A stretch of 64,000 bases of DNA from Euglena gracilis (lineage: Eukaryota), in the NCBI GenBank assembly GCA_039621445.1, contig CP154954.1:24068954-24132953 (forward strand), in the 5' to 3' direction. How positions within the stretch are numbered: position 1 is the first letter of the stretch; every line of letters begins with the position of its first letter. A model generated the notes under the pieces. That model saw nothing but the letters and a program-made list of their open reading frames with translations, was not told the DNA's origin and searched no databases. The translations under genes and the position numbers were made by a program. Below are positions 6,082-34,254 of the stretch, piece after piece.

Positions 6082-6308
6082 TTTCAAACGATTTGTCAGA
6101 ATTAAAGTGGGATCAGACCTGTGGGAGTTTCAGGGGGCCTGTTTTGGCCTACGCACCCTCCCAAAATTGTGGATGTCCCTAATGAAAGTTCTGCTAAAAC
6201 TGTGGAGGTCAAAGGGAATGCAGGTGTTCGTCTATTTGGACGACATCATTCTGTTTGGTTCAACAGAAAATTTGGTGAAAAAACATTTGCTGCAAATGCT
6301 GCACACAT
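5231..6308 (+). pseudogene. DIRS reverse transcriptase, 5' part
   Basis: RIITDCRDLN, AVKLDLKDAYFHL, CFGLRTLP, VYLDDIIL. Cut at MLHT by Gypsy copy 1. Confidence 0.92.
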
Positions 6309-6718
6309 TGAAAAGGTGGCTTTGGCTACCTTCCCCCCCCCCTGACCTCCCTGGGCAGTGGATGAAAGAGACCCCCTTTGCTCATGAAATAAAGGTGCAA
6401 GAGCCACTCACAACTGGCCCATGTGTGCTTCATGGGGGGGGCCTTCCACAAAGGAGCCTTCCCCAACGCCCCCCCCCCACCAACCGTCCCAACTTCCCCA
6501 GCACATTCTTACTGTGACGTTCCTGACTTTTTTTCGTGTACATATGCTCACCTCTGCACAGGCTGGTCTTTGTGTCTTCAAATGGTCATGTTTTATGCCT
6601 GCTGAAGTTTGTTGGTGAAAGCGACCGAAGGAGGATTAGAAAAACGTCGACGGAGAGGAGAGATCAAAAAAAGATCCTACGCAAGCTGAGTCCAAGAAGA
6701 AGGACTGAAAGCTTTACA
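6309..6718 (+). repeat. 5' LTR, Gypsy copy 1
   Basis: tgaaaagg...gctttaca, near-identical to 14196-14604. Confidence 0.97.
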
Positions 6719-6720
6719 GT

Positions 6721-6731
6721 TGGTAGCAGAG
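6721..6731 (+). promoter_or_regulatory. Primer-binding site complementary to the initiator tRNA-Met 3' end
   Basis: TGGTAGCAGAG 2 nt after the LTR; the same at 26350-26360 (+) and 24759-24769 (-). Confidence 0.85.
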
Positions 6732-7028
6732 AGGTATCCTCTACCTCGACTTGCTGTCCTATCCCACCCGTGGTCGCCGTCGTCGGAAGTCGTCGGAGGA
6801 GCGACACCGCCGAGAGCAACAAGAGGAGAAGAGAGCCTCCGAGGAGCCGCTCTGACCTTCCCTCTGACCGCCTGACTGGCCCCTGCCTGACCCACTCCTT
6901 TGTGGTCGGCCCCCAGTCAAAGCTTTTTACTAAGGCCAGCCGGACAAAGCCCACCCCCGGGGAGAGACAAAGAAAGAGAACCCTCTCAACTGTGAAAAGC
7001 CATAGCGTGAGCCTGTGAGCCCACCGCC

Positions 7029-10000
7029 ATGACTGAGTCACCACCGCCTGAACAAGAGCCTGAGCATCAGTCCACTCTACATGACATCGAGGAGAAGCTG
7101 AAGGACCTCGAGCTCAGAGTCTTCGGCCACGAGTCCAAGGACTCGTCAACCCCTCTCGTTTCCCCGTTCACACCCCACTCTTTTTGGGAGAAGAGGATTG
7201 AGAAGTTCAAGGGTAGCTTGGAGTTGAAAGAAAGTTCTGTGACAGCCAAATTCCCTCCTATCCCGTTGCCTTCGTTTGATGGTTCGGACCTTGAAGCCTT
7301 TTTGAAAGAGTTTGAACGTTGGTTGCGTCTTTCCGGTGTGAAAAGATCCCCAGAAGCTTTCCAGTTGGATTGGCTCATCCAATGTGTTGTTCCCAAGTAC
7401 AGAAAGGTTGTTGAAAAGGTTGTTGAGGAGCAGCCCCAGCTTGACAAAGTGCTTTTGGCATTGTCCCAACTGTTTCCGAAGCTCGAGAACGACCTTACGC
7501 TTCGGGAATCCCTTGACCATCTCCATCTCCAGTCCCTTTCAGCCACCCCAGATCCAGCCACAGTGAAAAGGTTGTTGGTTGAGTTTGAGGAGGTGACAGC
7601 CAGAATGTCAAAGGGAGCTTTGGGAGACCAGGAAAAGTACCTATACCTCTCCAAGAAAATTCACCCCAAGATGTTTTCTGAGTTGAGACAAGACAGGTAC
7701 TGCAAAAGGAGGACAGAAACTTATGAGGAATTGAAAGTTTGCTTGCTGGAAAAGGCCCAAGAAGATTGGTTGGAACGTCATCTTCAAAAGAAAATTTCGC
7801 TGCATACTCTCCAGGAAACACCCCAGCCACAAAAAGCCCAAGGAGACTTGCCCATGGTTGATTCCCAGGGTTCTTCATCTTCCAAGCCTTCAGCGTTTTC
7901 CCAGGTGCAAGGCAAAGGAAAAGGCAAAGGAGTTTACCCCAAAGGCAAAGGAAGTGGTCCTGCCAAAGGCAAGGGCAAAGGCAAGGGTTTTTCCCATGTG
8001 TAAGGTGTGCAAAGTCAGCCCAACCAACCTGGACCCCCTCAGTTGTCTGTTTCTCTTTGGTGCAAGTTTTGTGGAAAGAAAGGTCATTATGAGGACAAAT
8101 GTTGGACAAAACAAAAGGAGGAAAGAAAAGCCAAATAAAAGGAGAAAAGTTCACCCCCATCCTCACACACCTCCACACAACAACCCGATTCAGCCAAAAA
8201 GAGGAAAATTGACACACTCCACATCTTGAAAGGTACATCCCTCATCACCAATGTGACCATCAATGGGACATCCCTCAAGGCCATCATCGACAGTGGTGCA
8301 ACAACAAGTGCCATTGCCGGGAAATGTGTTCCACCAGGTGCAATCATCAGATCGATGGTTGTCCCCATCCAAGTTGGAAATGGTGATGTGATTTTTTCGG
8401 ATGGGATAGCCGAGCTCACTCTCCAATTTGGGGAGAGCATTTTGAAGCAAGAGGCGTTGGTCATCCAAACAAATGCCTTTGAAGCCGTTTTAGGCATGGA
8501 TGTTTTGACCAATGAAAAAGTGGGTGGTCTTTTGACACAACCCCCCCCTTGCAAGTTGCTCGTGGAAGGAAAAAAGTATCCTTTGATGGAAAATGATGGT
8601 TCAAGGATTCATCGGATTTACCGACTCTTCAAAAGGGAAAGTTACACACTTGTCCCCAATGTCAAAAAGGAAGTTCTTTCTCGTTTGGAAATGAACGATT
8701 TTGACATCGAGGTGGACCTATTCTCAAACCACAGGAATTTCCAAGAGGCTCGGTATTGTACGCGGGCGAACAACTCAGTTTTCTACGATTGGAGTCGGAT
8801 TGGAGAAAAGGAAAGTTCCATTTTGTGGGCGAATCCCCCTTTCTCGGTCCTCGACCGAGTTTTGACCAAGGTGGCCATGGAACCTCTCCGGATGGTTTTG
8901 GTTTGCCCAGATTGGGGAGATTGTTATTGGAGACAAATTTTGGAAAAGCTTTCCATTGCTCAAGTTCAAGTCCCCAATGGCATGGAAACGTACCGTTCCG
9001 ATTTTCAAGAAAAAGCATTGCCAGCCCCACAATGGAATACAATTGTTTCAGTTTTGGATTCCAAGTCGAAAAGCATCCCGATTTCGGAGTTGGACCCCAA
9101 GATCTTGAAATGGATTTTGAGGAAATGTCGGAAATGGGATTTGGAGCATTTGGTGAATGAACTCAAAAAGTACCCCAAAGTGAGTGTTGAGGGCATGGAA
9201 AGGGAGATTCAAGTGGATGTTGATGAAATCCCATTGTCTCCCCCCGTTTCACCCATCTCATCCTTGCCCCATGACTCTCTTTTTCAGATGGAGAAAAATA
9301 CAAGTGTCATCGAAGTGGGTGCGGAATTATCAATCGAAGTGAATTTGAGCTTCACCGAGAAGGACCACAAGCCACCAACAATGGTTTCAAATATTGAAGA
9401 ATTGGAGTTCAATGGAGCCGATGGTATGGAAGTCCGAGGTACCCCCTCTTCCCCCTTCACCGTTTCGGATCGAGAATTGTCCAAGGTGTGTGAAAGGCTT
9501 TTGCAACAAATTCCCGTTCCACAAAAAGATGGTTTGTTTGACAAGGAAACCGAGAATTTGCATGGTGATTTGCAAGGTGATCTTGCCCGTTTTGAAAAGG
9601 AACCCCAATTGAAAGTGCTCCTTGAAAAGTACATGGAAATTTTTGGTCCTCTCCCGAGTCCCGGCATGGGTTGTCAACTCGTCCAATGTGATTTGGAACT
9701 CAAGGATGAGTTCAAGGGGAGGGTGATCCGTGGCAAATGTTGGCCTATGAGCGAAAAGGATTCCATGGAAATTCACAAACAAGTGAATGAATTGGTGGAA
9801 AGTGGGTTGGTGGAGAGCTACCCCAAAGGAAAGACCCCAACCCATTGTTCTCCAACATTTTTGGTGGAAAAGAAGGAAAGCCAATCGAAAAGGATGGTGG
9901 GCCAATACAAAAAGGTCAACGACCATGTGAAAAGTCATTCGGCATTTTTACCAAACATGGAACAAATGGTCGAAAATTTGGCCCAATGTCGATAGAAATC

Positions 10001-13000
10001 AAAACTCGACCTGAGAAGTGGGTTTTGGCAAGTTGGTTTGAGTGAAAGGGCAAAAGAACTCACCGCATTTGTCACCCCGAATGGTCAAGTTTTGGCAATG
10101 GAATTGCATGCCTTTTGGAATTCAAGCCGCACCCGCAATTTTTCAAGAACTCATGGAAAGGGTGATTTCGGAAATGAAGGAAAATCCAAAGGTTGCAAAT
10201 TTGTTGGAACCGAAAAATGGCCAAAGGAAATGTTTTGTGGGAGCATTTTTCGATGATGTCAGGGTGGGAGCATCGACCATCCCCGAACATTTGTTTTTGT
10301 TGGAGGAACTTTTCAAAGTGGTGAAAAAGCACAAGCTCCGAATCAAGTTGACCAAGTGTGACTTTTTGAAAGAAAGCATTGAGTACCTTGGTTTTTTGGT
10401 TCAATGGGGATCATGTAGGCCAAGTGAGAAAAATTTTCAAGCTTTGGTGGATTTCAAAGTGAAAAGTTTGAAAGATCTCCGTGCTTTTTTGGGAGCTTGC
10501 AACTTTTTTCGTCGCCATGTGAAAGCATTCACATTTTCAAGTGCGGACTTGACCGATCTTCTCAAGAAAAATGCAAGATTTGTTTGGACCCAAAAAGAAG
10601 AAAAGCTCATCCAGGACATCAAGCAAAAACTTTTGAATGCGGTGCCCCTCGGGGTACCACGGTCATGTGGAGAAATGGTTGTCATTACCGATGCCTCCGA
10701 CCGGGGGGGAGGTGGAACGATTTTTCAATGGCAATCGTTGGACCCCTCTCAAGTCCCTCAAGGATTCACAACCCAAGGTATGTCCAAGGAAGGTGTGCTC
10801 ATTCACAATTACCCAAATGAATTTCGGTTGGTACCCATCGGGCATTGGAATTGGAAATGGTGCCCCACAAGATCCCGGTATTCCACCTTTGAACAAGAAC
10901 TTTTGGCCGGTGTGCTAATGTTTTCAACGCAAAGTCGAATTTTGCAAGGTTTGCCGGTTGTTTGGTTTTGTGATCATGAGGCCCTCAGGAATTTCTTGGA
11001 CAAAGAACCCCCCGTGAATCAAAGATTGAGACGTTGGTTTTGTTTTTTGGGTCAATTCAAGATAAATATTGTGCATACACCCGGAATGAAAAATGAGTGG
11101 TGTGATTGGTTGTCAAGGAGTCATTTTGACCAAAAGTTCAACGTTGAATTCGAAAATTTGGCAAAAGATGCATTCGAAAAGATGGACTCCCAATTGGATC
11201 TTTCTTTGCAAGTTTTGTCGTTTGAGATGAAAGACTTCAATTTTCCATTGGATTACCCATCGAGTGATTTTGCCGAGATTTGGGAAAAATTGGAACCATG
11301 GAAAGCTCAAGTCATCGATGATTGTTTGTGGTTCAAGGCCAAAGACAAACTTTTTTGTGAGCGAAAATTGGCCATCCCCAAGGAAAGTCTTCCCCAAGCG
11401 TCATCGTGGTTTCATCGAGCTCATGGTCATCCCGGTCCCGAGCGGACGCTTTGGTCATTTCTCCACAATTTACATTCATCCCTCTCAAGAAAGGATTTGT
11501 TCGGTTTGTTTCGGAATGTTTTGGGTTCGTGTGAAACATGTGTCATGTCAAAGCCAAGTTCACAAGCCGATCGTGGACTTTTGGGTTGTTTGCCAATTCC
11601 TCCCCTTTGCAACGACATCATTTTTCTCGATTTTGTCGCCCTTGATGAATTCAGTTCTTTTGATTACGCTTTGGGCATTGTGGATGGTTTGAGTCGTTTT
11701 GTTTGTACCTCCCATGCCATAAAGAAGTGACGGGTGAAAAAGTCTTGAAGATGATTTTGAAAGAATGGGTGGAAAAATTTGGTCGCCCCAACGAAGTTTT
11801 GAGTGATAATGACATTCGCTTCAAGTCAAGTTCCGGTTTTTACCAAGAGGCCATGAAATCACTCGGAATCAAGGTTTTGTTCTCTCTTCCGAGGCATCCT
11901 TCATCAAATGGGTTGATGGAAAGAGAAAATCGTTCGTTTGTGCAAACATTGAGATGTCTTGTGCACGAAACGGGTACAAAAGATTGGCCAAAGTTGCTTC
12001 CGTACGTCAATTTTCTGATGAACAGCCAGATTTCAAGTTCGACGGGAATGTCTCCATCGGAACTTTTCCTCGGTCGATCTCCATGGAAATTAGAAAGTGT
12101 TGGAGAACCGTGTGAAAGCCCATCTGTCGAAAATTGTATTTTGGAACAGCTTTTAATTCAAGAAAAGGAAAGTTTGAGGCTGAAACATCTCAGAAGTTTG
12201 GCGATGGAGCGGAAAAACAAGGTTCGGAAACCTGCCGTTTATGAAATTGGTCAATTTGTCCTCGTCCACAAGTCTCGATGGCCCCAGAGAAAAGTCGAAA
12301 AGATCGCCAGTCCATGGTTTGGACCCTACAAAGTTGTTCAAGTGCACTACAACTCTTTGCAAATTTTGGCATCTCCATCATTGGGAGGTTTGGTGAAAGT
12401 TTCGTTCTCCCAAGTGAAACACTGGAGTTCTGTCCATGACCCACACAATGACACTTCGTTTTTGTCAGAGGAGTGTGAGGAATTTGATGGTGCACAAACC
12501 CCTGCTTCATTCACAGGTCACACACACGACCGAGGAACAGGCGGCGAACAGCGAGGCGCAAGCGACGCACACAGAGGTGCACGCGACGAACGCACGACAA
12601 AACCAGAACACGACAGAACAAGGCCACAACAGGAAACGCGAGGCGAAAGGCCCAGAACAGCCGAACGAGCACGCGACGCACGGCCGAGCGCACGCGACGA
12701 ACCCCCAGAAAGACCAGAAGGACCCAACCCCCAGAAAGACCAGTTTTCTTCTAATTTTCCCTCTCAGATGGTTACCAGAAGCAAGTCCCGAGGGCCAGAA
12801 TCAAGTTTCAATTCAAAGAATTCAAATTTTGGAGTTGGTCGACCCAGAGGTGAATCGAAGAGAATTTGGCAGAAAAAGTCGGAGTTTGAGAAGGACAACC
12901 TGGAGGAGAGTGGTCCAGATGGACCTTTGCAGCAGGCTGCTGCAGAAGCTGCTGATCATCTTGAAGTTGATGTTTAAAATGTTGATGATCTTGCTGTTCA

Positions 13001-13454
13001 ACTTCCACAAGATGAACTTCAACATGATGGTGTTCTGGGGCCTGTGGCCCCAACACTGCAGCCCAGTGCTTCAGATTCTGTGCCTGTTTTCCCAGTTTCA
13101 CAGTCAGAACCAGAAAAAGTCAGCAGTTTTGCTTCAGAATGTGTTTCAGATTTGCCCAAAACAGCCAGACAGTTTTCAGAAATGGAGGCTGCAAAAATGG
13201 GTTTTTACAATGTTGAAGCCATTTTGGATCACAAGTTCAGAAATGGTTGGAGGTTTCTGACAAAGTGGGAGAATTACCCAGTGCATTCATCAACATGGGG
13301 ACCAGTCAGAAGTTTCATTTTGCCAGGTGGAAGAATGAACTCAGTTTTTCAGAATTACATTCATGACAGTGGTTTGCAAGAGGTTTTGAAGAAAGTGCAG
13401 AAGAATGTGAATACCCAACCCAGTCCAGTTTTCACAGTCAAACTGTTTCCATGA
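7029..13454 (+). pseudogene. Gypsy copy 1 polyprotein gag-PR-MTase-RT-RH-IN-chromodomain (disrupted)
   Basis: CKFCGKKGHYEDKC knuckle; IIDSGA protease; WANPPF; SKLDLRSGFWQ, PFG, FFDD; TDAS...EQELLA...CDH...DWLSR; HRAHGH...CETC, DDE, GPY; YNVEAILDH...KWENYP...STW. Stops at 8001, 8136, 9993 and 12975; frameshifts near 10090 and 11700. Confidence 0.93.
8640..9060 (+). other. Dam-like N6-adenine DNA methyltransferase domain between protease and RT (copy 1)
   Basis: VDLFSNHRN (8715) ... DWS ... LWANPPF (NPPF 8832-8843) ... VLVCPDWGDCYW. This is colinear with the DIRS MT in this window: DMFASPGN...VYANPPW...LVTPMWVSSPWW. Confidence 0.85.
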
Positions 13455-14184
13455 AATTTGGTGCCTTGGGCATCAGAAACTGACCCCAGCATGCACAACC
13501 AGCCAAAGAAAGCAGAATAACCCCTCTCTTTTCTAAGTGCCAGCCCAGCTGCTGAGGAGTAGAATGTCTGGGTGCAGAAGCCACAGGGCCAGAGGCACTT
13601 AGGTCTTGCACCTAAGAGTGTAATCAGCCTGAATTCGAGAGCCAAAAAGGCCAGGCCATGATTCTACCAACAAGTTCGCCAGCACCAGACCACCACCAAC
13701 AACAAGTCAATTGATCATCTTCATCATCGCGATCTTCTTCATCATGATCAATTTCAAGAAGTTTTCATGTTCAACAATTTGATGAAGATAGAGCTGTCGT
13801 ACACCATTTTGATGTTCGTTGACTTTGTTGTTCTTTGTCTTGATGTTCACTGTTGGACATGTTGTTCACGGTTCAGTTTGGATTTCAGATTGATGTTTGA
13901 GTATGGCTTTTCCCAGTTTTTGTGGAGAGAGAGAAAGGCCAGAGAGAGGGAGCAACCGGGAAAGAGAAAGAAAACCCCCCAGAGCCACAAACGACACAAG
14001 CTGGCTGGGGTAAAAAGTTTTTGACTTCTCTTCCACTGCCCCCTGACCAAAAAAAAAAGTTAACAATTGATGCCGATTTTACGGCCCACGTTCACGAGTC
14101 CAAAAAAAAAACGACGTTCGCCTGAGATTTCAGCCAAGTCTTTTGAGCCCCCTTTTTGTGTGCTCGGTGGTGCTTTGCTCCACC

Positions 14185-14195
14185 AAGGGGGGGAT
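14185..14195 (+). promoter_or_regulatory. Polypurine tract, Gypsy copy 1
   Basis: aagggggggat immediately before the 3' LTR; equivalents in copies 2 and 3. Confidence 0.8.
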
Positions 14196-14604
14196 TGAAA
14201 AGGTGGCCTTGGCTACCTTCCCCCCCCCTGACCTCCCTGGGCAGTGGATGAAAGAGACCCCCTTTGCTCATGAAAGAAAGGTGCAAGAACCACTCACAAC
14301 TGGCCCATGTGTGCTTCATGGTGGGGGGCCTTCCACAAAGGAGCCTTCCCCAACGCCCCCCCCCACCAACCGTCCCAACTTCCCCAGCACATTCTTACTG
14401 TGACGTTCCTAACTTTTTTTGGTGTACATATGCTCACCTCTGCACAGGCTGGTATTTGTGTCTTCAAATGGTCATGTTTTATGCCTGCTGAAGTTTGTTG
14501 GTGAAAGCGACCGAAGGAGGATTAGAAAAAGGTCGACGGAGAGGAGAGATCAAAAAAAGATCCTACGCAAGCTGAGTCCAAGAAGAAGGACTGAAAGCTT
14601 TACA
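14196..14604 (+). repeat. 3' LTR, Gypsy copy 1
   Basis: Direct repeat of 6309-6718. Confidence 0.97.
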
Positions 14605-14609
14605 CACAT

Positions 14610-15856
14610 TAGGGGAGGCTGGGTTCAAGGTCAGCAAGAAAAAGTCTGGGTTTACTCCCACACAAAGGCTACAACATTTGGGGTTCATCATAGACTTGGA
14701 AAAAGGTCAGCTGGAGGTGCCCCCACACAAATTAAAGACTATCAGAAAGGAACTGGGCAAGGTGGTGATGGCCCAAAAACTAAGTTGCAGAAAGATAGCC
14801 AGCATTCTGGGTCAAGTCAGAAGTTACCTCCCTGCTCTGCCATTTTTAAGACTGGTAACCCAGGAGCTTTTAAAGTTCAGCCAGATGCACCAAGAAAAGG
14901 GCTGGGATTTTTGCATCGACATTCCAGAAAGGCTGAAAGGGGAAATCAAAGTGCTGAAGGCATACTTGCAGCCAGGCCTGGGCAGGCCTTTCCTACAACA
15001 GGCAAAAAGGGTGCTCCATTCAGACTCCTCCACATGGGCATGGGGGGGAGTGGAATCCTCCCAAAATCAAATCATCCAAGAATTTTGGAGGGAGAAATAT
15101 TGTTTACATATAAATGTGAAACAGCTAATGGCAGCAGTTCAGACCGTAAAAGCATTTGCCCAGCCTGGGGAAACGGTGCTGTTAAACGTGGACAATCAAG
15201 TGGCACTGAGTTACCTCGCCAAATGGGGGGGAGGAAAACAACACCTCAATCAGATTTTGGAACCCCTGTTTCATTGGTGTTGGGAAAACCAAGTTCAACT
15301 GCAGGTCCAGTGGGTTCCTTCAGCAGCAATGTTGGCAGACCCCCTCACAAGGTGGGATCAAGACAGGGGGGATTATACCCTGTGCCCAAACCTGTTCACC
15401 CACATTTTGAAGTTTTTCAGAAAAGACATTGCTCCAGACACAGACATGTTTGCATCTCCAGGAAATGCAAAATTCCAAAAATTTGTAGCCAGATGGCCCC
15501 ACCACCAGGATTTTCTGGTGGATGCATTGAATTGCGACGTGACTTCAGACCAAGATGTTTATGCCAACCCCCCATGGAAAGTAATTTTTGCCTGGCTCAT
15601 CAGACTGAGACTGAACAAGCAGGTGAAATGTCTTTTGGTGACACCCATGTGGGTTTCGAGTCCATGGTGGCCCCTATTAATCAAAATGTCCAAACCAGGG
15701 ACAAGAATGTTGGTCTTACCCCCCAGGGAAGGCATTTTCAGCAATTGCTGGGGGCAATCAATGCCAAAGCCAAAGTGGCCCCTCGCTTGCACAGTGGTAT
15801 CAGGTTCCTTTTGGAACAGCAAAAAATGTCACATCAAGACATTGAAAATGTCCTGA
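14610..15856 (+). pseudogene. DIRS RT C-terminus, RNase H and Dam-like methyltransferase
   Basis: Rejoins as MLHT|LGEAGFKVSKKKS...QHLGFIID. RNase H: HSDSS, HINVKQL, NVDNQVAL, LADPLTR. MT: DMFAS (15443), YANPPW (NPPW 15566-15577). Confidence 0.92.
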
Positions 15857-16970: not shown

Positions 16971-17005
16971 GAAGCACCCTGCCAAAAAGAACACAAACAA
17001 CAAAA
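16925..17005 (-). repeat. DIRS right ITR, inner part (continues at 25195)
   Basis: cgccaactccggcaccaaa...aaaaagaacacaaacaacaaaa is the inverse of ~4161-4223. Confidence 0.85.
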
Positions 17006-25189: not shown

Positions 25190-25194
25190 CAAAA

Positions 25195-25284
25195 CAGCCG
25201 GCACACAAAGCAGGATCTCACCCCCCTCTTGTGCTCCGCCCTCATGGTCATTTCCTCCCTGGTCATTCTTCCCGGGAGTACTCA
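25195..25284 (-). repeat. DIRS right ITR, outer part plus right extension
   Basis: cagccggcacacaaagcaggatctcacccc is the inverse of ~4132-4161; the remainder is the inverse of the ICR. Confidence 0.9.
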
Positions 25285-25287
25285 ACC

Positions 25288-25930
25288 GGGCCCTGACTGG
25301 ACTTCACCACGGCCTAGGCCAACTGGGCTGTTCTTTGAACTTCACGAAGACCACGGTCTGGGGTCCCGAGACACGGCACATACCTTCCCTCCCCGAGGAT
25401 TCGGTGCTACGGCAGGCATCCATCATCCCGTATACGCCAGACTCCGGCGTCTCGGTCCTGGGTGTCCCAGTTCACCACCCGGCTTCTCGCGCCTTTGTTC
25501 GGCAGCAATTGGACAGTTGCATCTCCAAGAATGAACAGGCGTGCACCTTGCTGGGCTCGGTACGCGACCCGCAGGTGCAGCTGTCCTTGCTTCGCTTCTG
25601 CTTCGACGCGTGCAAGTTCAGCTCGCTGCTTCGTTGCTTCGCTGCTCACTGCGTTCCGTTCACAGACCTCCTGTCCCGCGCCGACAGCTGTCTCCGGTCC
25701 ACCTTACAACAGATCCTGGATTGCTCGGTATCGGACACTCAATGGGCCCAGGCTTCCCTCCCCCTACACCAGGGCGTGTTCGGCATACGGTTATCTGCCG
25801 ACAATGTGCTGCCTGCCCGCCTGAGTGCCCTGCTGTCTTGGATTACCTCTGCACCAACCTCCCTGGGTTTGGGCAACATCTCGCGGGCCCCGCTTGATGG
25901 CCTGTCAGAGCTTCTGTCCGGTTTACAAAC
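25288..25930 (+). pseudogene. CRE-1 ORF part 3: RT thumb region
   Basis: LNFTKTTVWGP, GVSVLGVPV, LSLLRFC, QWAQASLPLHQGVFGIR; colinear with CRE-2 ORF 37167-38708. Confidence 0.9.
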
Positions 25931-28900
25931 TGAAAAGGTGGCGTTGGCTACCTTCCCCCCCCCCTGACCTCCCTGGGCAGTGGATGAAAGAGACCCCCTT
26001 TGCTCATAAAAGAAAGGTGCAAGAACCTGACTTCAGAATTGGCCCATGTGTCCTTCATGGGGGGGGCCTTCCACAAAGGAGTCTTCCCCAACGCCCCCCC
26101 CAAACCGCCCAACCACATTCTCTACTGATTCTTACTGTGACGTTCCTGACTTTTTGGTGTGCATGTGTCTCACCTTTCTGCACAGGCTCGCCTTGGCGCT
26201 TTGTCAAACAATGTGTTTTATGCTTGTAGATTGGAAGTAAAAGTGCCACGAAGGAGGATTTGGAAAAAGGTCGAGAGAGAGGAGAGTTCAAAAAAAAGAA
26301 GGATTCTACGCAAGCTTATTCCAAGAAGAAGGACAAAAAGCTTTACAATTGGTAGCAGAGAGGTATCATCTACCTCGACTTGCTGTCCTATCCTACCCGT
26401 GGTCGCCGTCGTCGGAAGTCGTCGGAGAAGCGACACCGCCGAGAGCAACAAGAGGAGAAGAGAGCCTCCGAGGAGCCGCTCTGACCTTCCCTCTGACCGC
26501 CTGACTGGACCCTGCCTGACCCACTCCTTTGTGGTCGGCCCCCAGTCAAAGCTTTTTACTAAGGCCAGCCGGACAAAGCCCACCCCCGGGGAGAGACAAA
26601 GAAAGAGAACCCTCTCAAGTGTGAAAAGCCATAGCGTGAGCCTGTGAGCCCACCGCCATGACTGAGTCACCACCGCCTGAACAAGAGCCTGAGCATCAGT
26701 CCACTCTACAGGACATCGAGGAGAAGCTGAAGGACCTCGAGCTCAGAGTCTTCGGCCACGAGTCCAAGGACTCGTCAACCCCTCTCGTTTCCCCGTTCAC
26801 ACCCCACTCTTTTTGGGAGAAGAGGATTGAGAAGTTCAAGGGTAGCTTGGAGTTGAAAGAAAGTTCTGTGACAGCCAAACTCCCTCCTATCCCGTTGCCT
26901 TCGTTTGATGGTTCGGACCTTGAAGCCTTTTTGAAAGAGTTTGAACGTTGGTTGCGTCTTTCCGGTGTGAAAAGTGCCCCAGAAGCTTTCCAGTTGGATT
27001 GGCTCATCCAATGTGTTGTTCCCAAGTACAGAAAGGTTGTTGAAAAGGTTGTTGAGGAGCAGCCCCAGCTTGACAAAGTGCTTTTGGCATTGTCCCAACT
27101 GTTTCCGAAGCTCGAGAACGACCTTACGCTTCGGGAATCCCTTGACCATCTCCAGTCCCTTTCAGCCACCCCAGACCCAGCCACAGTGAAAAGGTTGTTG
27201 GTTGAGTTTGAGGAGGTGACAGCCAGAATGTCAAAGGGAGCTTTGGGAGACCAGGAAAGGTACCTATACCTCTCCAAGAAAATTCACCCCAAGATGTTTT
27301 CTGAGTTGAGACAAGACAGGTACTACAAAAGGAGGACAGAAACTTATGAGGACTTGAAAGTTTGCTTGCTGGAAAAGGCCCAAGAAGATTGGTTGGAACG
27401 TCATCTTCAAAAGAAAATTTCGCTGCATACTCTCCAGGAAACACCCCAGCCACAAAAATCCCAAGGAGACTTGCCCATGGTTGATTCCCAGGTTTCTTCA
27501 TCTTCCAAGCCTTCAGGGTTTTCCCAGGTGCAAGGCAAAGGAAAAGGCAAAGGAGTTTACCCCAAAGGCAAAGGAAGTGGTCCTGCCAAAGGCAAGGGCA
27601 AAGGCAAGGGTTTTTCCCATGTGCAAGGTGTGCAAAGTCAGCCCAACCAACGTGGACCCCCTCAGTTGTCTGTTTCTCTTTGGTGCAAGTTTTGTGGAAA
27701 GAAAGGTCATTATGAGGACAAATGTTGGACAAAACAAAAGGAGGAAAGAAAAGCCAAATAAAAGGAGAAAAGTTCACCCCCATCCTCACAAACCCCCACA
27801 CAACAACCCGATTCAGCCAAAAAGAGGAAAATTGACACACTCCACATCTTGAAAGGTACATCCCTCATCACCAATGTGACCATCAATGGGACATCCCTCA
27901 AGGCCATCATCGACAGTGGTGCAACAACAAGTGCCATTGCCCGGAAATGTGTTCCACCAGGTGCAATCATCAGATCGATGGTTGTCCCCATCCAAGTTGG
28001 AAATGGTGATGTGATTTTTTCGGATGGGATAGCCGAGCTCACTCTCCAATTTGGGGAGAGCATTTTGAAGCAAGAGGCGTTGGTCATCCAAACAAATGCC
28101 TTTGAAGCCGTTTTAGGCATGGATGTTTTGACCAATGAAAAAGTGGGTGGTCTTTTGACACAACCCCCCCCTTGCAAGTTGCTCGTGGAAGGAAAAAAGT
28201 ATCCTTTGATGGAAAATGATGGTTCAAGGATTCATCGGATTTACCGACACTTCAAAAGGGAAAGTTACACACTTGTCCCCAATGTCAAAAAGGAAGTTCT
28301 TTCTCGTTTGGAAATGAACGATTTTGACATCGAGGTGGACCTATTCTCAAACCACAGGAATTTCCAAGAGGCTCGGTATTGTACGCGGGCGAACAACTCA
28401 GTTATCTACGATTGGAGTCGGATTGGAGAAAAGGAAAGTTCCATTTTGTGGGCGAATCCTCCTTTCTCGGTCCTCGACCGAGTTTTGACCAAGGTGGCCA
28501 TGGAACCTCTCCGGATGGTTTTAGTTTGCCCGGATTGGGGAGATTTTTATTGGATACAAATTTTGGAAAAGCTTTCCATTGCTCAAGTTCAAGTCCCCAA
28601 TGGCATGGAAACGTACCGTTCCGATTTTCAAGAAAAAGCATTGCCAGCCCCACAATGGAATACAATTGTTTCAGTTTTGGATTCCAAGTCGAAAAGCATC
28701 CCGATTTCGGAGTTGGACCCCAAGATCGTGAAATGGATTTTGAGAAAATGTCGGAAATGGGATTTGGAGCATTTGGTGAATGAACTCAAAAAGTACCCCA
28801 AAGTGAGTGTTGAGGGCATGGAAAGGGAGATTCAAGTGGATGTTGATGAAATCCCATTGTCTCCCCCCGTTTCACCCATCTCATCCTTGCCCCATGACTC

Positions 28901-31900
28901 TCTTTTTCAGATGGAGAAAAATACAAGTGTCATCGAAGTGGGTGCGGAATTATCAATCGAAGTGGATTTGAGCTTCACCGAGTAGGACCACAAGCCAGCA
29001 ACAATGGTGTCAAATATTGAAGAATTGGAGTTCAATGGAGCCGATGGTATGGAAGTCCGAGGTACCCCCTCTTCCCCCTTCACCGTTTCGGATGGAGAAT
29101 TGTCCAAGGTGTGTGAAAAGCTTTTGCAACAAATTCCCGTCCCACAAAAAGATGGTTTGTTTGACAAGGAAACCGAGAATTTGCATGGTGATTTGCAAGG
29201 TGATCTTGCCCGTTTTGAAAAGGAACCCCAATTGAAAGTGCTCCTTGAAAAGTACATGGAAATTTTTGGTCTTCTCCCAAGTACCGGCATGGGTTGTCAA
29301 CTCGTCCAATGTGATTTGAAACTCAAGGATGAGTTCAAGGGGAGGGTGATCCGTGGCAAATGTTGGCCAATGAGCGAAAAGGATTCCATGGAAATTCACA
29401 AACAAGTGAATGAATTGGTGGAAAGTGGGTTGGTGGAGAGCTACCCCAAAGGAAAGACCCCAACCCATTGTTCTCCAACATTTTTGGTGGAAAAGAAGGA
29501 AAGCCAATCGAAAAGGATGGTGGGCCAATACAAAAAGGTCAAGGACCATGTGAAAAGTCGTTCGGCATTTTTACCAAACATGGAACAAATGGTCGAAAAT
29601 TTAGCCCAATGTCGATAGAAATCAAAACTCGACCTAAGAAGTGGGTTTTGGCAAGTTGGTTTGAGTGAAAGGGCAAAAAAACTCACCGCATTTGTCACCC
29701 CGAATGGTCAAGTGTGGCAATGGAATTGCATGCCATTTAGAATTCAAGCCGCACCCACAATTTTTCAAGAACTCATGGAAAGGGTGATTTCGGAAATGAA
29801 GGAAAATCCAAAGGTTGCAAATTTGTTGGAACCGAAAAATGGCCAAAGGAAATGTTTTGTGGGAGCATTTTTCGATGATGTCGGGGTGGGAGCATCGACC
29901 ATCCCCGAACATTTGTTTTTGTTGGAGGAACTTTTCAAAGTGGTGAAAAAGAACAAGCTCCGAATAAAGTTGACCAAGTGTGACTTTTTGAAAGAAAGCA
30001 TTGAGTACCTTGGTTTTTCGGTTCAATGGGCATCATGGAGGCCAAGTGAGAAAAATATTCAAGCTTTGGTGGATTTCAAAGTGAAACGTTTGAAAGATCT
30101 CCGTGCTTTTTTGGGAGCTTGCAACTTTTTTCGTCGCCATGTGAAAGCATTCACATTTTCAAGTGCGGACTTGACCGATCTTCTCAAGAAAAATGCAAGA
30201 TTTGTTTTGACCCAAAAAGAAGAAAAGCTCATCCAGGACATCAAGCAAAAACTTTTGGATGCGGTGCCCCTTGGGGTACCACGGTCGTGTGGAGAAATGG
30301 TTGTCATTACTGATGCCTCCGACCGGGGGGGAGGTGGAACGATTTTTCAATGGCAATCGTTGGACCCCTCTCAAGTCCCTCAAGGATTCACAACCCAAGG
30401 TATGTCCAAGGAAGGTGTGCTCATTCACAATTACCCAAATGAATTTCGGTTGGTACCCATCGGGCATTGGAATTGGAAATGGTGCCCCACAAGATCCCGG
30501 TATTCCACCTTTGAACAAGAACTTTTGGCCGGTGTGCTAATGTTTTCAACGCAAAGTCGAATTTTGCAAGGTTTGCCGGTTGTTTGGTTTTGTGATCATG
30601 AGGCCCTCAAGAATTTCCTGGACAAAGAACCCCCCGTGAATCAAAGATTGAGACGTTGGTTTTGTTTTTTGGGTCAATTCATGATCAAGATTGTGCATAA
30701 AAAAAAAAAAAAAAATGAGTGGTGTGATTGGTTGTCAAGGAGTCATTTTGACCAAAAGTTCAATGTTGAATTCGAAAATTTGGCAAAAGTTACATTCGAA
30801 AAGATGGACTCCCAATTGGATCTTTCTTTGCAAGTTTTGTCGTTTGAGATGAAAGATTTCAATTTTCCATTGGATTACCCATCGAGTGATTTTGCCGAGA
30901 TTTGGGAAAAATTGGAACCATGGAAAGCTCAAGTCATCGATGATTGTTTGTGGTTCAAGGCCAAAGACAAACTTTTTTGTGAGCGAAAATTGGCCATCCC
31001 CAAGGAAAGTCTTCCCCAAGCGTCATCGTGGCTTCATCGAGCTCATGGTCATCCCGGTCCCGAGCGGACGCTTTGGTCATTTCTCCAAAATTTCCATTCA
31101 TCCCTCTCAAGAAAGGATTTGTTCGGTTTGTTTCGGAATGTTTTGGGTTCGTGTGAAACATGTGTCATGTCAAAGCCAAGTTCACAATCCGATCGTGGAC
31201 TTTTGGGTTGTTTGCCAATTCCTCCCCTTTGCAACGACATCATTTTTCTCGATTTTGTCGCCCTTGATGAATTCAATTCTTTTGATTACGCTTTGGGCAT
31301 TGTGGATGGTTTGAGTCGGTTTTGTTTGTACCTCCCATGCCACAAAGAAGTGACGGGTGAAAAAGTCTTGAAGATGATTTTGAAAGAATGGGTGGAAAAA
31401 TTTGGTCGCCCCAACGAAGTTTTGAGTGATAATGACATTCGCTTCAAGTCAAGTTCCGGTTTTTACCAAGAGGCCATGAAATCACTCGGAATCAAGGTTT
31501 CGTTCTCTCTTCCGAGGCATCCTTCATCAAATGGTTTGATGGAAAGAGAAACTCGTTCGTTTGTGCAAACATTGAGATGTCTTGTGCACGAAACGGGTAC
31601 AAAAGATTGGCCAAAGTTGCTTCCGTACGTCAATTTTCTGATGAACAGCCAGATTTCAAGTTCGACGGGAATGTCTCCATCGGAACTTTTCCTCGGTCGA
31701 TCTCCATGGAAATTCGAAAGTGTTGGAGAACCGTGTGAAAGCCCATCTGTCGAAAATTGGATTTTGGAACAGATTTTGATTCAAGAAAAGGCAAGTTTGA
31801 GGCTGAAACATCTCAGAAGTTTGGCGATGGAGCGGAAAAACAAGGTTCGAAAACCTGCCGTTTATGAAATTGGTCAATTTGTCCTCGTCCACAAGTCTCG

Positions 31901-34249
31901 ATGGCCCCAGAGAAAAGTCGAAAAGATCGCCAGTCCATGGTTTGGACCCTACAAAGTTGTTCAAGTGCACTACAACTCTTTGCAAATTTTGGCATCTCCA
32001 TCATTGGGAGGTTTGGTGAAAGTTTCGTTCTCCCAAGTGAAACACTGGAGTTCTGTCCATGACCCACACAATGACACTTCGTTTTTGTCAGAGGAGTGTG
32101 AGGAATTTGATGGTGCACAAACCCCTGCTTCATTCACAGGTCACACACACGACCGAGGAACAGGCGGCGAACAGCGAGGCGCAAGCGACGCACACAGAGG
32201 CGCACGCGACGAACGCACGACAAAACCAGAACACGACAAGAACAAGGCCAGAACAGGAAACGCGAGGCGAAAGGCCCAGAACAGCCGAACGAGCACGCGA
32301 CGCACGGCCGAGCGCACGCGACGAACCCCCAGAAAGACCAGAAGGACCCAACCCCCAGAAAGACCAGTTTTCTTCTAATTTTCCCTCTCAGATGGTTACC
32401 AGAAGTAAGGCCCGAGGGCCAGAATCAAGTTTCAATTCAAAGAATTCAAATTTTGGAGTTGGTCGACCCAGAGGTGAATCGAAGAGAATTTGGCAGAAAA
32501 AGTCGGAGTTTGAGAAGGACAACCTGGAGGAGAGTGGTCCAGATGGACCTTTGCAGCAGGCTGCTGCAGAAGCTGCTGATCACCTTGAAGTTGATGTTCA
32601 AAATGTTGATGATCTTGCTGTTCAACTTCCACAAGATGAACTTCAACATGATGGTGTTCTGGGGCCTGTGGCCCCAACACTGCAGCCCAGTGCTGCAGAT
32701 TCTGTGCCTGTTTTCCTAGTTTCACAGTCAGAACCAGAAAAAGTCAGCAGTTTTGCTTCAGAATGTGTTTCAGATTTGCCCAAAACAGCCAGACAGTTTT
32801 CAGAAATGGAGGCTGCAAAAATGGGTTTTTACAATGTTGAAGCCATTTTGGATCACAAGTTCAGAAATGGTTGGAGGTTTCTGACAAAGTGGGAGAATTA
32901 CCCAGTGCATTCATCAACATGGGGACCAGTCAGAAGTTTCATTTTGCCAGGTGGAAGAATGAACTCAGTTTTTCAGAATTACATTCATGACAGTGGTTTG
33001 CAAGAGGTTTTGAAGAAAGTGCAGAAGAATGTGAATACCCAACCCAGTCCAGTTTTCACAGTCAAACTGTTTCCATGAAATTTGGTGCCTTGGGCATCAG
33101 AAACTGACCCCAGCATGCACAACCAGCCAAGAAAGCAGAATAACCCCTCTCTTTTCTAAGTGCCAGCCCAGCTGCTGAGAAGGAGGATGTCTGGGTGCAG
33201 AAGCCACAGGGCCAAGAGGCACTTAGGTCTTGCACCTAAGAGTGGAATCAGCCTGAATTCGAATGCCATTTTGGCCAGGCCATGATTCTACCATCAGGTT
33301 CGCCAGCACCAGACCACAAACCACAACAAGTCATCTGATCATCTTCATCATCATGTTCTTCTTCATCATGATCATTTTTCAGAAGCTGTTGTTGTTCACC
33401 ATTTTGATGAAGATAGAGCTGTCGTTCTTCATTTTGATGTTCGCTGACTTTGGTGTTCTTTGTCTTGATGTTCACTGTTGGACATGTTGTTCACGGTTCC
33501 GTCTGGAATTTCAGAATGATGTTTGATTATGGCTTTTCCCAGTTTTTGTGTGAGAGAGAAAGGCCAGAGAGAGAGCAAACGGGAAAGAGAAAGAAAACCC
33601 CCCCACAGCCACAAACGACACAAGCTGGCTGGTGTAAAAAGTTTTTGATTTCTCTTCCACTGCCCCCTGACCAAAAAAAAAACAACAAAAAAGTGAACAA
33701 TTGATGCCGCTTTTACGGCCCACGTTCACGAGTCCAAAAAAAAAAAGACCCTCGCCTGAGAATTCAGTCAAGTCTTTTGAGCCCGCTTTTTGTGTGCTTG
33801 GTGGGCTTTGCTTCACCAAGGGGGGGGATTGAAAAGGTGGCTTTGGCTACCTTCCCCCCCCCCCTGACCTCCCTGGGCAGTGGATGAAAGAGACCCCCTT
33901 TGCTCATAAAAGAAAGGTGCAAGAACCTGACTTCACAATTGGCCCATGTGTCCTTCATGGGGGGGGGGCTTCCACAAAGGAGTCTTCCCCAACGCCCCTC
34001 CCAAACCGCCCAACCACATTCTCTACTGATTCTTACTGTGACGTTCCTGACTTTTTGGTGTACATATGTCTCACCTTTCTGCACAGGCTGGCCTTGGTGC
34101 TTTGTTAAACAATGTGTTTTATGCTTGTGGATTGGAAGTAAAAGTGCCACGAAGGAGGATTTGGAAAAAGGTCGAGAGAGAGGAGAGTTCAAAAAAAAAG
34201 AAGGATTCTACGCAAGCTTAGTCCAAGAAGAAGGACAAAAAGCTTTACA
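25931..34249 (+). mobile_element. Gypsy-Dam-chromodomain element, copy 3, inserted in CRE-1
   Basis: LTRs 25931-26347 and 33830-34249; TSD CAAAC (25926-25930 / 34250-34254); PBS 26350-26360; PPT before 33830. Confidence 0.97.
26658..33078 (+). pseudogene. Gypsy copy 3 polyprotein (least disrupted)
   Basis: ORFs starting at 26658, 27849, 29004 and 29661 share one frame, separated by stops at 27759, 28983 and 29616. One extra base near 32238 shifts the chromodomain. NPPF at 28455-28466. Confidence 0.93.
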
Positions 34250-34254
34250 CAAAC

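What the first reader, a model, noticed from the sequence alone, without database searches (positions are those of the whole stretch)
6309..34249. Ty3/Gypsy family encoding a Dam-like N6-adenine methyltransferase between protease and RT, plus a chromodomain
Seen: three full LTR elements (6309-14604 +, 17006-25189 -, 25931-34249 +) each carry DLF(S/A)NxxN...DW/DR...WANPPF...VCPDW...W in frame after the DSGA protease. In copy 2, gag-CCHC-PR-MTase is one open frame. Each also ends in a chromodomain. Established: NPP(Y/F/W) is motif IV of amino-methyltransferases, and a Dam-like domain is a standard part of DIRS1-type elements, downstream of RNase H. I do not know it as a described component of integrase-encoding Ty3/Gypsy elements or at this position. 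Inference: the element may mark its own cDNA with 6mA (or 4mC) and use a chromatin reader for targeting, giving a writer-plus-reader retrotransposon.
Basis: partly seen in the sequence, partly recalled or inferred. Interest (0 to 1): 0.9.

Follow-up and report, generated by a model that had tools for sequence, protein, structure and literature searches.

The report
Gypsy retrotransposon carrying an adenine methyltransferase
Three decayed copies of a jumping gene of the Ty3/Gypsy type really do carry an extra, well-conserved adenine-methyltransferase domain plus a chromatin-reading domain, but this kind of element was described in a 2026 preprint, so it is a sound observation rather than a new one.

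Summary
The three LTR elements lie exactly at 6309-14604 (+), 17006-25189 (-) and 25931-34249 (+). Each has 412-420 bp TG..CA LTRs and its own 5-bp target duplication. The order is gag(CCHC)-PR-MTase-RT-RNaseH-IN-chromodomain.

The window's 181-aa insert scores below Pfam's Dam cut-off (25.5 against 28.1 bits). It nevertheless belongs to a large family: 634 representatives, of which 36 of 42 sampled match PF05869. It folds at pLDDT 96.5 into the minimal N6-adenine MTase core shared by small phage Dam enzymes and PCIF1/CAPAM.

NPP[FWY] is kept in 116 of 141 homologues. The domain diverges no faster than PR or RT, and dN/dS among the copies is about 0.3. Colinear relatives exist, one with an intact 1988-aa ORF.

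bioRxiv 10.64898/2026.05.21.726589 (May 2026) describes such 'DAM-LTRs', including chromodomain-bearing ones, and proposes the same writer-plus-reader idea. It found no activity in E. coli.

All three copies here are broken. Copy 1 sits inside a DIRS-like element that has its own Dam-like domain. The substrate (DNA, RNA or hybrid) and the host remain unknown.

The parts
6309..14604 (+). Copy 1, full-length LTR element (8296 bp); LTRs 6309-6718 and 14196-14604; TSD CACAT at 6304-6308 and 14605-14609; degraded
7011..8135 (+). Copy 1 gag with CCHC knuckle (one internal stop), followed by an in-frame TAA at 8136-8138
8214..8618 (+). Copy 1 aspartic protease (DSGA)
   Evidence: Pfam gag-asp_proteas 37.2 bits against a 28.2 cut-off
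8631..9173 (+). Copy 1 Dam-like N6-adenine MTase domain (181 aa; DLFSN..W..NPPF..PDW)
9459..12365 (+). Copy 1 RT-RNaseH-integrase (frameshifts near 9996-10091 and 11697-11700)
13173..13451 (+). Copy 1 chromodomain
   Evidence: tblastn 92% identity to the copy 2 chromodomain
17006..25189 (-). Copy 2, full-length LTR element (8184 bp); LTRs 24772-25189 and 17006-17422; TSD TTTTG (element strand); degraded
22202..24016 (-). Copy 2 single open frame: gag C-terminus with CCHC, PR (22931-23335) and Dam-like domain (22376-22918). The family-invariant Trp is Arg here
18121..18399 (-). Copy 2 chromodomain
   Evidence: Pfam Chromo 31.9 bits against a 25.1 cut-off
25931..34249 (+). Copy 3, full-length LTR element (8319 bp); LTRs 25931-26347 and 33830-34249; TSD CAAAC; degraded
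28254..28796 (+). Copy 3 Dam-like domain (PR at 27837-28241 upstream; in-frame TAA at 27759-27761 between gag and PR)
29619..31988 (+). Copy 3 RT-RNaseH-integrase in one open frame (ORF 29619-32378)
   Evidence: Pfam RVT_1, RT_RNaseH, Integrase_H2C2 and rve
32797..33075 (+). Copy 3 chromodomain
   Evidence: Pfam Chromo 26.5 bits against a 25.1 cut-off
5159..6308 (+). Context, not part of the LTR family: left half of a DIRS-like RT (YLDD) cut by the insertion of copy 1
   Evidence: Pfam RVT_1 52.2 bits; reading ..LHTL | TLGEAG.. resumes after the element
14605..15853 (+). Context: right half of the same DIRS-like ORF, comprising RT tail, RNase H region and its own Dam-like domain (about 15365-15832, ..YANPPW..), 23% identical to the LTR-element domain

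Best explanation
These are three independent, now-defective insertions of one high-copy Ty3/Gypsy (chromovirus-like) LTR retrotransposon family. Its polyprotein reads gag(CCHC)-PR-[Dam-like N6-adenine methyltransferase]-RT-RNaseH-IN-chromodomain, which makes it a 'DAM-LTR' element in the sense of the 2026 preprint. The extra domain is a complete minimal class-I SAM-MTase core of the phage-Dam (PF05869) / DIRS-MT / PCIF1 clade. It has a motif-I-like VDLF(A/S) strand and the motif-IV NPPF loop.

Shown: the domain is a stable, selected part of the pol reading frame across relatives that have diverged to 40-50% protein identity.

Inferred: it is made as part of Gag-Pol and packaged with RT. It is then either released by PR or left attached to a neighbouring domain. 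It transfers a methyl group from SAM to N6 of adenine in the element's own replication intermediates (cDNA or RNA:DNA hybrid), so new insertions carry 6mA. The C-terminal chromodomain, whose three aromatic-cage positions are present (identified from recalled HP1 knowledge), steers integration towards marked chromatin. That fits the nested TE-in-TE insertions seen here.
For: Anatomy.

Domain identity:
- Pfam Dam gives 22.8-25.5 bits for the window's own copy, against a cut-off of 28.1.
- Relatives pass the cut-off: P0159 29.9, P0047 36.3 and P0103 29.9 bits.
- 36 of 42 aligned family members match PF05869 at E<=0.01.
- 634 representatives match at E<=1e-3, and 170 at E<=1e-10.

Fold:
- The AlphaFold2 model has pLDDT 96.5 and pTM 0.91.
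- BFVD top matches are small phage DNA N6-adenine MTases: TMt up to 0.83 and rmsd 2.3 A over 138 columns, with 26 matches at E<=1e-3.
- The PDB top match is PCIF1/CAPAM: Foldseek E 5e-6, and VIA Z 9.3 with rmsd 2.9 A over 126 residues.
- T4 Dam scores Z 7.4, EcoDam 7.2 and M.TaqI 6.2.

Selection:
- NPP[FWY] is present in 116 of the 141 homologues that cover the motif, out of 152 examined.
- dN/dS among the three copies is 0.25-0.34.
- Of the 12 listed family variants inside the domain, 9 are synonymous, 3 of them in the N, P and F codons of NPPF.
- Against L001 and L002, the Dam domain is 51% and 42% identical. PR is 52/34%, RT-RH-IN 56/46% and gag 52/37%.

Architecture in relatives:
- L001 has one intact 1988-aa ORF reading gag-PR-Dam-RT-RH-IN-Chromo.
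- L002, P0159 and P0160 show the same order.
- 16 of the 19 homologues with at least 120 aa of N-terminal flank have PR upstream.

Abundance and transcripts: 6534 contigs of one DNA run lie on copy 1, and contigs of a metatranscriptome cover 27 of 30 bins, including 8783-9262.

Published model: the preprint reports DAM-LTRs enriched for 6mA in three species.
Against: No activity has been shown for any eukaryotic TE Dam. The preprint found no rise in 6mA when DIRS, DAM-LTR and adintovirus DAMs were expressed in dam-deficient E. coli. Iyer et al. 2016 judged DIRS1 MT domains inactive (passage). The window's own domain is below Pfam's gathering score, and a family profile found no PDB chain by sequence. 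The nearest solved structure is an RNA enzyme. All three copies here are dead, and copy 2 has Arg at the family-invariant Trp. RNA-library contigs may be DNA carry-over. Chromodomain targeting is inferred from three insertions into TE-rich DNA only.
Confidence: 0.85

Rival explanations
1. The domain is an active adenine-N6 methyltransferase whose real substrate is RNA, or the RNA:DNA hybrid or ssDNA of reverse transcription, rather than duplex DNA. It would then resemble its closest solved relative PCIF1/CAPAM. It could mark the element's genomic RNA or mRNA (affecting stability, translation, packaging or evasion of sensing) or the nascent minus strand.
For: PCIF1/CAPAM is the top PDB match by two methods. 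The next matches are rRNA adenine methyltransferases (KsgA, Erm, DIMT1). One family member matches Pfam PCIF1_WW at E 5.7e-6, and the DIRS-like copy in the window matches it weakly. Iyer et al. 2016 place the DIRS1 MT domains in the PCIF1 clade. The negative dsDNA result in E. coli would be explained, and the preprint itself raises a hybrid substrate.
Against: The domain lacks PCIF1's helical cap-binding domain and WW domain; only about 150 residues of catalytic core are present. The best structural matches in BFVD are small phage enzymes annotated as DNA N6-adenine MTases. The preprint reports more 6mA on DAM-LTR insertions. A shared fold does not show the substrate.
Confidence: 0.25
2. The domain is catalytically dead and is kept for a non-enzymatic role, such as nucleic-acid or SAM binding, a spacer or fold needed for polyprotein processing, or recruitment of the host 6mA machinery.
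For: Heterologous assays were negative. Iyer et al. 2016 held the view that DIRS1 MT domains are inactive. The region between strand 1 and strand 4 is reduced in the model, with no helices between residues 30 and 63.
Against: The catalytic tetrapeptide is kept in 116 of 141 homologues, with synonymous changes inside its codons. The motif-I-like D29 and F31, and N36, E39, N47, Y52 and W54, are invariant in the nine-sequence alignment A2. Small phage Dams have the same minimal core.
Confidence: 0.13
3. The Dam-like segment is not part of the Gypsy element. It would be a fragment of a DIRS element that landed inside it, or an assembly chimera; the window does contain a DIRS-like element with a Dam-like domain.
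For: Copy 1 is physically nested in a DIRS-like element with its own MT domain. The preprint warns of nested or chimeric cases in one lineage.
Against: The domain is in frame between PR and RT in all three copies, with no DIRS RT or RNase H next to it. Three independent insertions with different TSDs carry it. L001, L002, P0159 and P0160 have the same order, L001 in one intact ORF. It is only 23% identical to the neighbouring DIRS-like domain.
Confidence: 0.02

Closest known systems
DAM-LTR retrotransposons (Fernandez-Moreno et al., bioRxiv 10.64898/2026.05.21.726589, May 2026), especially the chromodomain-containing ones (Chlorophyta DAM-chromovirus-like clade, Euglena DAM-LTR group)
   Same: A Ty3/Gypsy-type LTR element with a DDE integrase that encodes a DIRS-related DAM domain with a conserved Asn-Pro-Pro pocket, together with a chromodomain. 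The proposed writer-plus-reader logic is the same.
   Different: The text I could read does not state a PR-DAM-RT position. It mentions DAM flanked by IN and RT for one clade, and an added DNMT for 'EpiLTRs'; no DNMT is present here. I could not place this family in their five lineages or their species list, because figures and supplements are not held and the host of the window is unknown.
DIRS1-type retrotransposon MT domain (Goodwin and Poulter; cited)
   Same: The motif set is the same (DxFA..N, NPP[FWY], P.W..W) and the two are homologous. The window's own DIRS-like copy aligns at 23% identity, E 2e-8.
   Different: In DIRS the domain follows RNase H, and the element uses a tyrosine recombinase. 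Here it lies between PR and RT of an element with LTRs, TSDs and an rve integrase.
Phage DNA N6-adenine methyltransferase family, Pfam PF05869 (Dam)
   Same: The minimal Rossmann core and NPPF-type loop are shared. Relatives pass the Pfam cut-off, and the best BFVD structural matches belong here (TMt up to 0.83).
   Different: The window's domain scores 25.5 bits against a 28.1 cut-off, and only profile positions 25-80 of 169 align by sequence. It is embedded in a polyprotein, and no activity has been shown.
PCIF1/CAPAM cap-specific mRNA adenosine N6-methyltransferase (PDB 6irw, 6irx)
   Same: It is the closest solved fold (Z 9.3, 19% identity, NPPF catalytic loop) and falls in the same clade according to Iyer et al. 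2016.
   Different: The WW domain and helical cap-binding domain are absent here. PCIF1 is a cellular RNA enzyme, not a TE-encoded domain.
Chromoviruses (chromodomain-containing Ty3/Gypsy elements)
   Same: The order is PR-RT-RH-IN with a C-terminal chromodomain. The insertions lie in TE-rich DNA.
   Different: These elements carry the additional MTase domain. RT phylogeny was not tested.
DNMT-carrying retrotransposons (de Mendoza et al. 2018, PMC5890265)
   Same: A retrotransposon polyprotein that has captured a DNA-methyltransferase-type domain.
   Different: Those carry C5-cytosine MTases, which have an unrelated fold and produce a different mark.

Membership tests
Ty3/Gypsy (Metaviridae-type) LTR retrotransposon | LTRs with TG..CA ends, short TSD, PBS after the 5' LTR and polypurine tract before the 3' LTR | tested here: met
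   412-420 bp LTRs, 5-bp TSDs in all three copies, TGGTAGCAGAG after the 5' LTR and a G-rich tract before the 3' LTR
Ty3/Gypsy (Metaviridae-type) LTR retrotransposon | pol order PR-RT-RNaseH-IN with a DDE (rve) integrase | tested here: met
   Pfam gag-asp_proteas, RVT_1, RT_RNaseH, Integrase_H2C2 and rve in that order
Chromovirus | Chromodomain at the C-terminal end of the integrase region | tested here: met
   Pfam Chromo 31.9 and 26.5 bits against a cut-off of 25.1; present in all three copies
Chromovirus | RT groups with the chromovirus clade in a phylogeny | not tested
DAM-LTR (2026 preprint) | DAM domain in the same element or ORF as LTR-type RT and integrase, and not a DIRS element | tested here: met
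   Copy 2 has gag-PR-Dam in one ORF, and relative L001 has the whole polyprotein in one ORF
DAM-LTR (2026 preprint) | Assignment to one of the five described lineages by DAM and RT trees | not testable with these tools
   Figures and supplementary sequences are not held; the host is not identified
Pfam PF05869 Dam | Score at or above the gathering cut-off of 28.1 bits | tested here: inconclusive
   The window's own domain scores 22.8-25.5 bits, below the cut-off. Homologues P0159 (29.9), P0047 (36.3) and P0103 (29.9) pass, and 36 of 42 members match at E<=0.01
N6-adenine (amino) methyltransferases | Class-I Rossmann MTase fold with (D/N)PP(Y/F/W) after strand 4 | tested here: met
   Model pLDDT 96.5, with strand 64-67 followed by NPPF. 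Matches to PCIF1, KsgA, T4 Dam, EcoDam, M.TaqI and phage Dams
N6-adenine (amino) methyltransferases | SAM binding and methyl transfer | not testable with these tools
   Needs biochemistry. The only published tests of TE Dams that I found were negative in E. coli
DIRS retrotransposon | Tyrosine recombinase instead of a DDE integrase; MT domain after RNase H | tested here: not met
   The three elements have an rve integrase and the MT lies between PR and RT. The separate DIRS-like fragment at 5159-6308 / 14605-15853 does have RT-RH-MT
PCIF1/CAPAM | WW domain and helical cap-binding domain flanking the MTase core | tested here: not met
   Only the core aligns: model residues 1-147 to chain residues 492-654 of 6irx. 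There is no WW hit in Pfam

The most novel reading that the evidence does not exclude
The PR-Dam-RT family is a distinct and very widespread DAM-LTR lineage: 634 representatives in public data, with PR directly upstream in 16 of 19 informative ones. Its methyltransferase would act not on duplex DNA but on the element's RNA or on the RNA:DNA / single-stranded intermediates of reverse transcription inside the particle, as its PCIF1-like core suggests. That would explain the negative E. coli assays and make it a retroelement-encoded epitranscriptomic or replication-intermediate writer.
Probability: 0.2. Interest if true: 0.7.

Novelty: already known. Interest (0 to 1): 0.33.

Why it matters
If TE-encoded Dam domains are active, retrotransposons would write an 'active chromatin' mark (6mA) on their own new copies, while a chromodomain reads histone marks for targeting. 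That would be a self-contained epigenetic toolkit. It bears on how mobile elements escape silencing and on the origin of eukaryotic adenine methylation.

This window adds a clean, fully delimited example. It also adds three things that help design the missing biochemical test:
- evidence of purifying selection on the domain
- a confident structural model linking the domain to both phage Dam and PCIF1
- a concrete DAM-LTR nested in a DAM-DIRS, a configuration that could confuse domain-window classifiers

Tried and rejected
- No whole genome is held for the window, so genome-wide copy analysis was not possible.
- No earlier notes of this scan exist.
- A family profile found no PDB chain by sequence at E<=10, and phmmer of the PR-Dam ORF found only protease structures.
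A nine-sequence alignment worked.
- One Pfam call failed on a frame containing stops and was repeated without that locus.
- Host identification failed. There are no tRNA or Rfam hits. Twenty further ORFs outside the three elements gave Pfam hits only to RVT_1 (2 ORFs) and, on one ORF (2969-3784, -), to Ins_beta and Galaxin_repeat (weak); the rest gave none.
- Run names are coded, and the Atlas look-up gave only scattered eukaryotic taxa.
- A literature search for the accession prefix of L001/L002 returned nothing relevant.
- BLASTP of the 152 homologues against the window's DIRS-like RT/RH found none. This is a weak test because DIRS elements are diverse.
- Sequence pieces after copy 2 and copy 3 (25190-25930, 34250-35155) gave no Pfam hit, so I do not claim that those copies also sit in the DIRS-like element.
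- dN/dS against L001 and L002 was not computed, because synonymous sites would be saturated at about 50% protein identity.
- The chimera or nested-fragment explanation was rejected (see rivals).

Full report
**Observation**

| Copy | Coordinates | Length | TSD | LTR pair identity |
|---|---|---|---|---|
| 1 | 6309-14604 (+) | 8296 bp | CACAT | 97.6% |
| 2 | 17006-25189 (-) | 8184 bp | TTTTG (element strand) | 97.4% |
| 3 | 25931-34249 (+) | 8319 bp | CAAAC | 96.7% |

Each copy has 412-420 bp LTRs that begin TG and end CA. Each has TGGTAGCAGAG after the 5' LTR and a G-rich tract before the 3' LTR. From memory, the first of these resembles an initiator-tRNA primer site.

Three different target duplications mean three independent insertions. 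The copies are 95.2-96.8% identical to each other. All of them carry stops or frameshifts, so none is autonomous.

The quoted peptide motifs are present in frame after DSGA in every copy. In copy 2, the gag C-terminus (CX2CX4HX4C), PR and the extra domain form one 604-aa open frame. A chromodomain closes each element: Pfam Chromo gives 31.9 and 26.5 bits against a 25.1 cut-off, and one search gives the coordinates in all three copies.

**What the extra domain is**

The window's own 181-aa segment (8631-9173) matches Pfam Dam PF05869 at E 1.2e-5 with 25.5 bits. That is below the 28.1 cut-off, and only profile positions 25-80 of 169 align. Taken alone this would be a lead, not a test.

An exhaustive phmmer search of 1.84 billion representatives found 634 proteins at E<=1e-3, 170 at E<=1e-10 and 17 at E<=1e-30. 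I aligned 41 of them with the query. Of the 42 sequences, 36 match PF05869 at E<=0.01, and one matches PCIF1_WW. Several relatives pass the Dam cut-off: P0159 at 29.9, P0047 at 36.3 and P0103 at 29.9 bits.

With that alignment, AlphaFold2 gives a very confident model (pLDDT 96.5, pTM 0.91). It is an alpha/beta sandwich. Strand 26-29 ends in VDLF, which is motif-I-like, and strand 64-67 runs into NPPF, which is motif IV.

Structural comparisons gave the following:
- In BFVD, the best matches are small phage proteins annotated as DNA N6-adenine methyltransferases. One example reaches TMt 0.83 with rmsd 2.3 A over 138 columns. Giant-virus PCIF1-WW proteins follow, and 26 matches have E<=1e-3.
- In the PDB, the best match is PCIF1/CAPAM, the cap-specific mRNA adenosine N6-methyltransferase. 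Foldseek gives E 5e-6, and VIA-align gives Z 9.3 with rmsd 2.9 A over 126 residues.
- rRNA adenine methyltransferases come next (Z about 8), then T4 Dam (7.4), EcoDam (7.2) and M.TaqI (6.2).

The tool warns that Z below 8 is common, so only the PCIF1 match stands out in the PDB. A family profile found no PDB chain by sequence. The domain is therefore a genuine amino-methyltransferase core of the phage-Dam / DIRS-MT / PCIF1 group. This agrees with the classification of Iyer et al. 2016 (PMC4738411; passages only).

**Is it maintained by selection?**

- Of the 152 homologues examined, 141 cover the catalytic tetrapeptide and 116 of these have NPP[FWY]: 108 NPPF, 7 NPPW and 1 NPPY.
- Among the three window copies, Nei-Gojobori dN/dS for the domain is 0.34, 0.26 and 0.25. 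The counts are small, with 4-11 synonymous and 4-11.5 non-synonymous differences per pair.
- Reads-derived contigs laid on copy 1 gave a table of the 40 best-supported variants, with 392 more not shown. Twelve of the 40 lie in the domain; nine are synonymous and three are not. Three of the synonymous changes fall in the N, P and F codons of NPPF itself.
- Against two colinear relatives from public contigs (L001, L002), the domain is 51% and 42% identical. It is no less conserved than PR (52/34), RT-RH-IN (56/46), gag (52/37) or the chromodomain (59/38).

**Architecture elsewhere**

L001 carries a single intact 1988-aa ORF with gag-PR-Dam-RT-RNaseH-IN-Chromo. L002, P0159 (1774 aa) and P0160 (1322 aa) show the same order.

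Among the 152 homologues, 25 show a PR-like segment upstream. Of the 19 with at least 120 residues of N-terminal flank, 16 do. The PR-Dam junction is therefore an old, stable feature of a large family and not an accident of these copies.

Weaker loci (L003, L005, L006; 23-27% identity) have a DIRS-type RT/RNase H directly upstream of the domain.

**Context in the window**

A fourth Dam-like domain turned up at about 15365-15832. It belongs to a DIRS-like RT-RNaseH-MT ORF. The RT of that ORF is cut at 6308 by copy 1 and resumes in frame after 14604.

The two Dam-like domains are only 23% identical, so the LTR family did not pick up its domain from this neighbour recently. The rest of the window holds more RT fragments and no recognisable host gene, tRNA or Rfam RNA.

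The family is extremely abundant in DNA runs of a coded organism. Its sequences also occur in contigs of a metatranscriptome, including a 480-nt piece across the domain. This hints at transcription, but DNA carry-over cannot be excluded.

**How it probably works**

Shown:
- The domain is translated as part of Gag-Pol.
- It has a complete and conserved adenine-N6 MTase core.
- It is under purifying selection.

Inferred:
- It travels into the particle with RT.
- It methylates adenines in the element's own replication products, so new insertions carry 6mA.
- The chromodomain directs integration to marked chromatin. Its three aromatic-cage positions appear to be present, a judgement made from recalled HP1 knowledge. 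Three nested insertions in TE-rich DNA fit this.

This is essentially the model of the 2026 preprint. That preprint reports more 6mA on DAM-LTR copies in two ichthyosporeans and in Euglena gracilis.

Two observations keep the substrate open. The preprint saw no rise in 6mA when TE Dams were expressed in dam-deficient E. coli, and the nearest solved structure is an RNA enzyme.

The main rivals are:
- an RNA or RNA:DNA-hybrid substrate (about 0.25)
- an inactive, structural or binding role (about 0.13)
- a nested-fragment or assembly chimera, which is effectively excluded

**Comparison with what is known**

Before 2026, Dam-like domains in eukaryotic retroelements were reported only for DIRS elements (passages in PMC5890265 and PMC6338049; PMC4738411).

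I made three full-text searches:
- retrotransposon + Dam + methyltransferase + DIRS + gypsy
- 'LTR retrotransposon' + 'adenine methyltransferase' + chromodomain
- 'DAM-LTR'

They found one work that describes the architecture: bioRxiv 10.64898/2026.05.21.726589. I read its Introduction, Results and Discussion and some Methods passages, but not its figures or supplements.

It reports DAM domains in non-DIRS LTR elements as a first. Chromodomain-containing LTR elements make up 30.9% of DAM-TEs, and it defines five DAM-LTR lineages. It proposes the same writer-plus-reader idea.

The text I saw does not say that DAM lies between PR and RT. I also cannot tell whether this family or its host is in their catalogue.

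**Verdict**

The functional inference is plausible but unproven. The novelty claim has been overtaken by a preprint.

I rate the kind as already known. What this analysis adds:
- exact anatomy of three copies
- selection evidence
- the breadth of the PR-Dam-RT family in public data
- a confident model linking the domain to phage Dam and PCIF1
- a worked example of a DAM-LTR nested in a DAM-DIRS

Interest is 0.33.

Noticed in passing
window 5159-6308 and 14605-15853 (+): A DIRS-like retroelement ORF (RT with YLDD, RNase H region, and its own Dam-like domain with YANPPW at about 15365-15832) is split by the insertion of copy 1. The reading ..LHTL | TLGEAG.. resumes across the empty site. A possible tyrosine-recombinase-like ORF overlaps downstream (14413-16368, no Pfam hit). 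A DAM-LTR nested in a DAM-DIRS could be mis-scored as a chimera by window-based domain pipelines.
   Followed up: partly
window, whole; elements 6309-14604, 17006-25189, 25931-34249: TpA depletion is extreme: observed/expected 0.19-0.21 inside the three elements, 0.33 for the whole window and 0.44 for 35000-64000. CpG o/e is 0.56. This explains the many long spurious ORFs in all six frames. The cause is unknown.
   Followed up: no
window 8136-8138 and 27759-27761 (+); the matching codon in copy 2 (-): Copies 1 and 3 have an in-frame TAA exactly between gag and PR, while copy 2 has GAA there. Relative L001 reads through in one ORF. This could be a readthrough-type gag/pol boundary or a mutation shared by the two closest copies.
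   Followed up: no
copy 2, within 22376-22918 (-): The Trp that is invariant in the 42-sequence family alignment is Arg in copy 2 (YDRSR against YDWSR). This is probably a post-insertion change in a dead copy.
   Followed up: partly
protein P0122 (959 aa): A relative with a Dam domain 29% identical also has a weak C5 DNA_methylase match (19.8 bits, cut-off 22). It is reminiscent of the dual-methyltransferase 'EpiLTRs' of the preprint.
   Followed up: no
window 1680-2687 (+) and 37167-38819 (-): There are two further reverse-transcriptase ORFs (Pfam RVT_1 39.6 and 50.1 bits). The whole window looks like a nest of retroelements, and no host gene was recognised.
   Followed up: no
window 6309-14604 laid on runs: The family is extremely abundant in the DNA run of the coded organism (6534 contigs laid). 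Contigs 90-99+% alike also occur in a leaf-litter metatranscriptome and in three runs guessed to be RNA. This hints at transcription, but DNA carry-over is not excluded.
   Followed up: partly
window 34250-35155 (+): An open frame directly after copy 3 has a Cys/His-rich motif (..CPLGCG..D..GYH...C..) and no Pfam match. It may belong to yet another mobile element.
   Followed up: no
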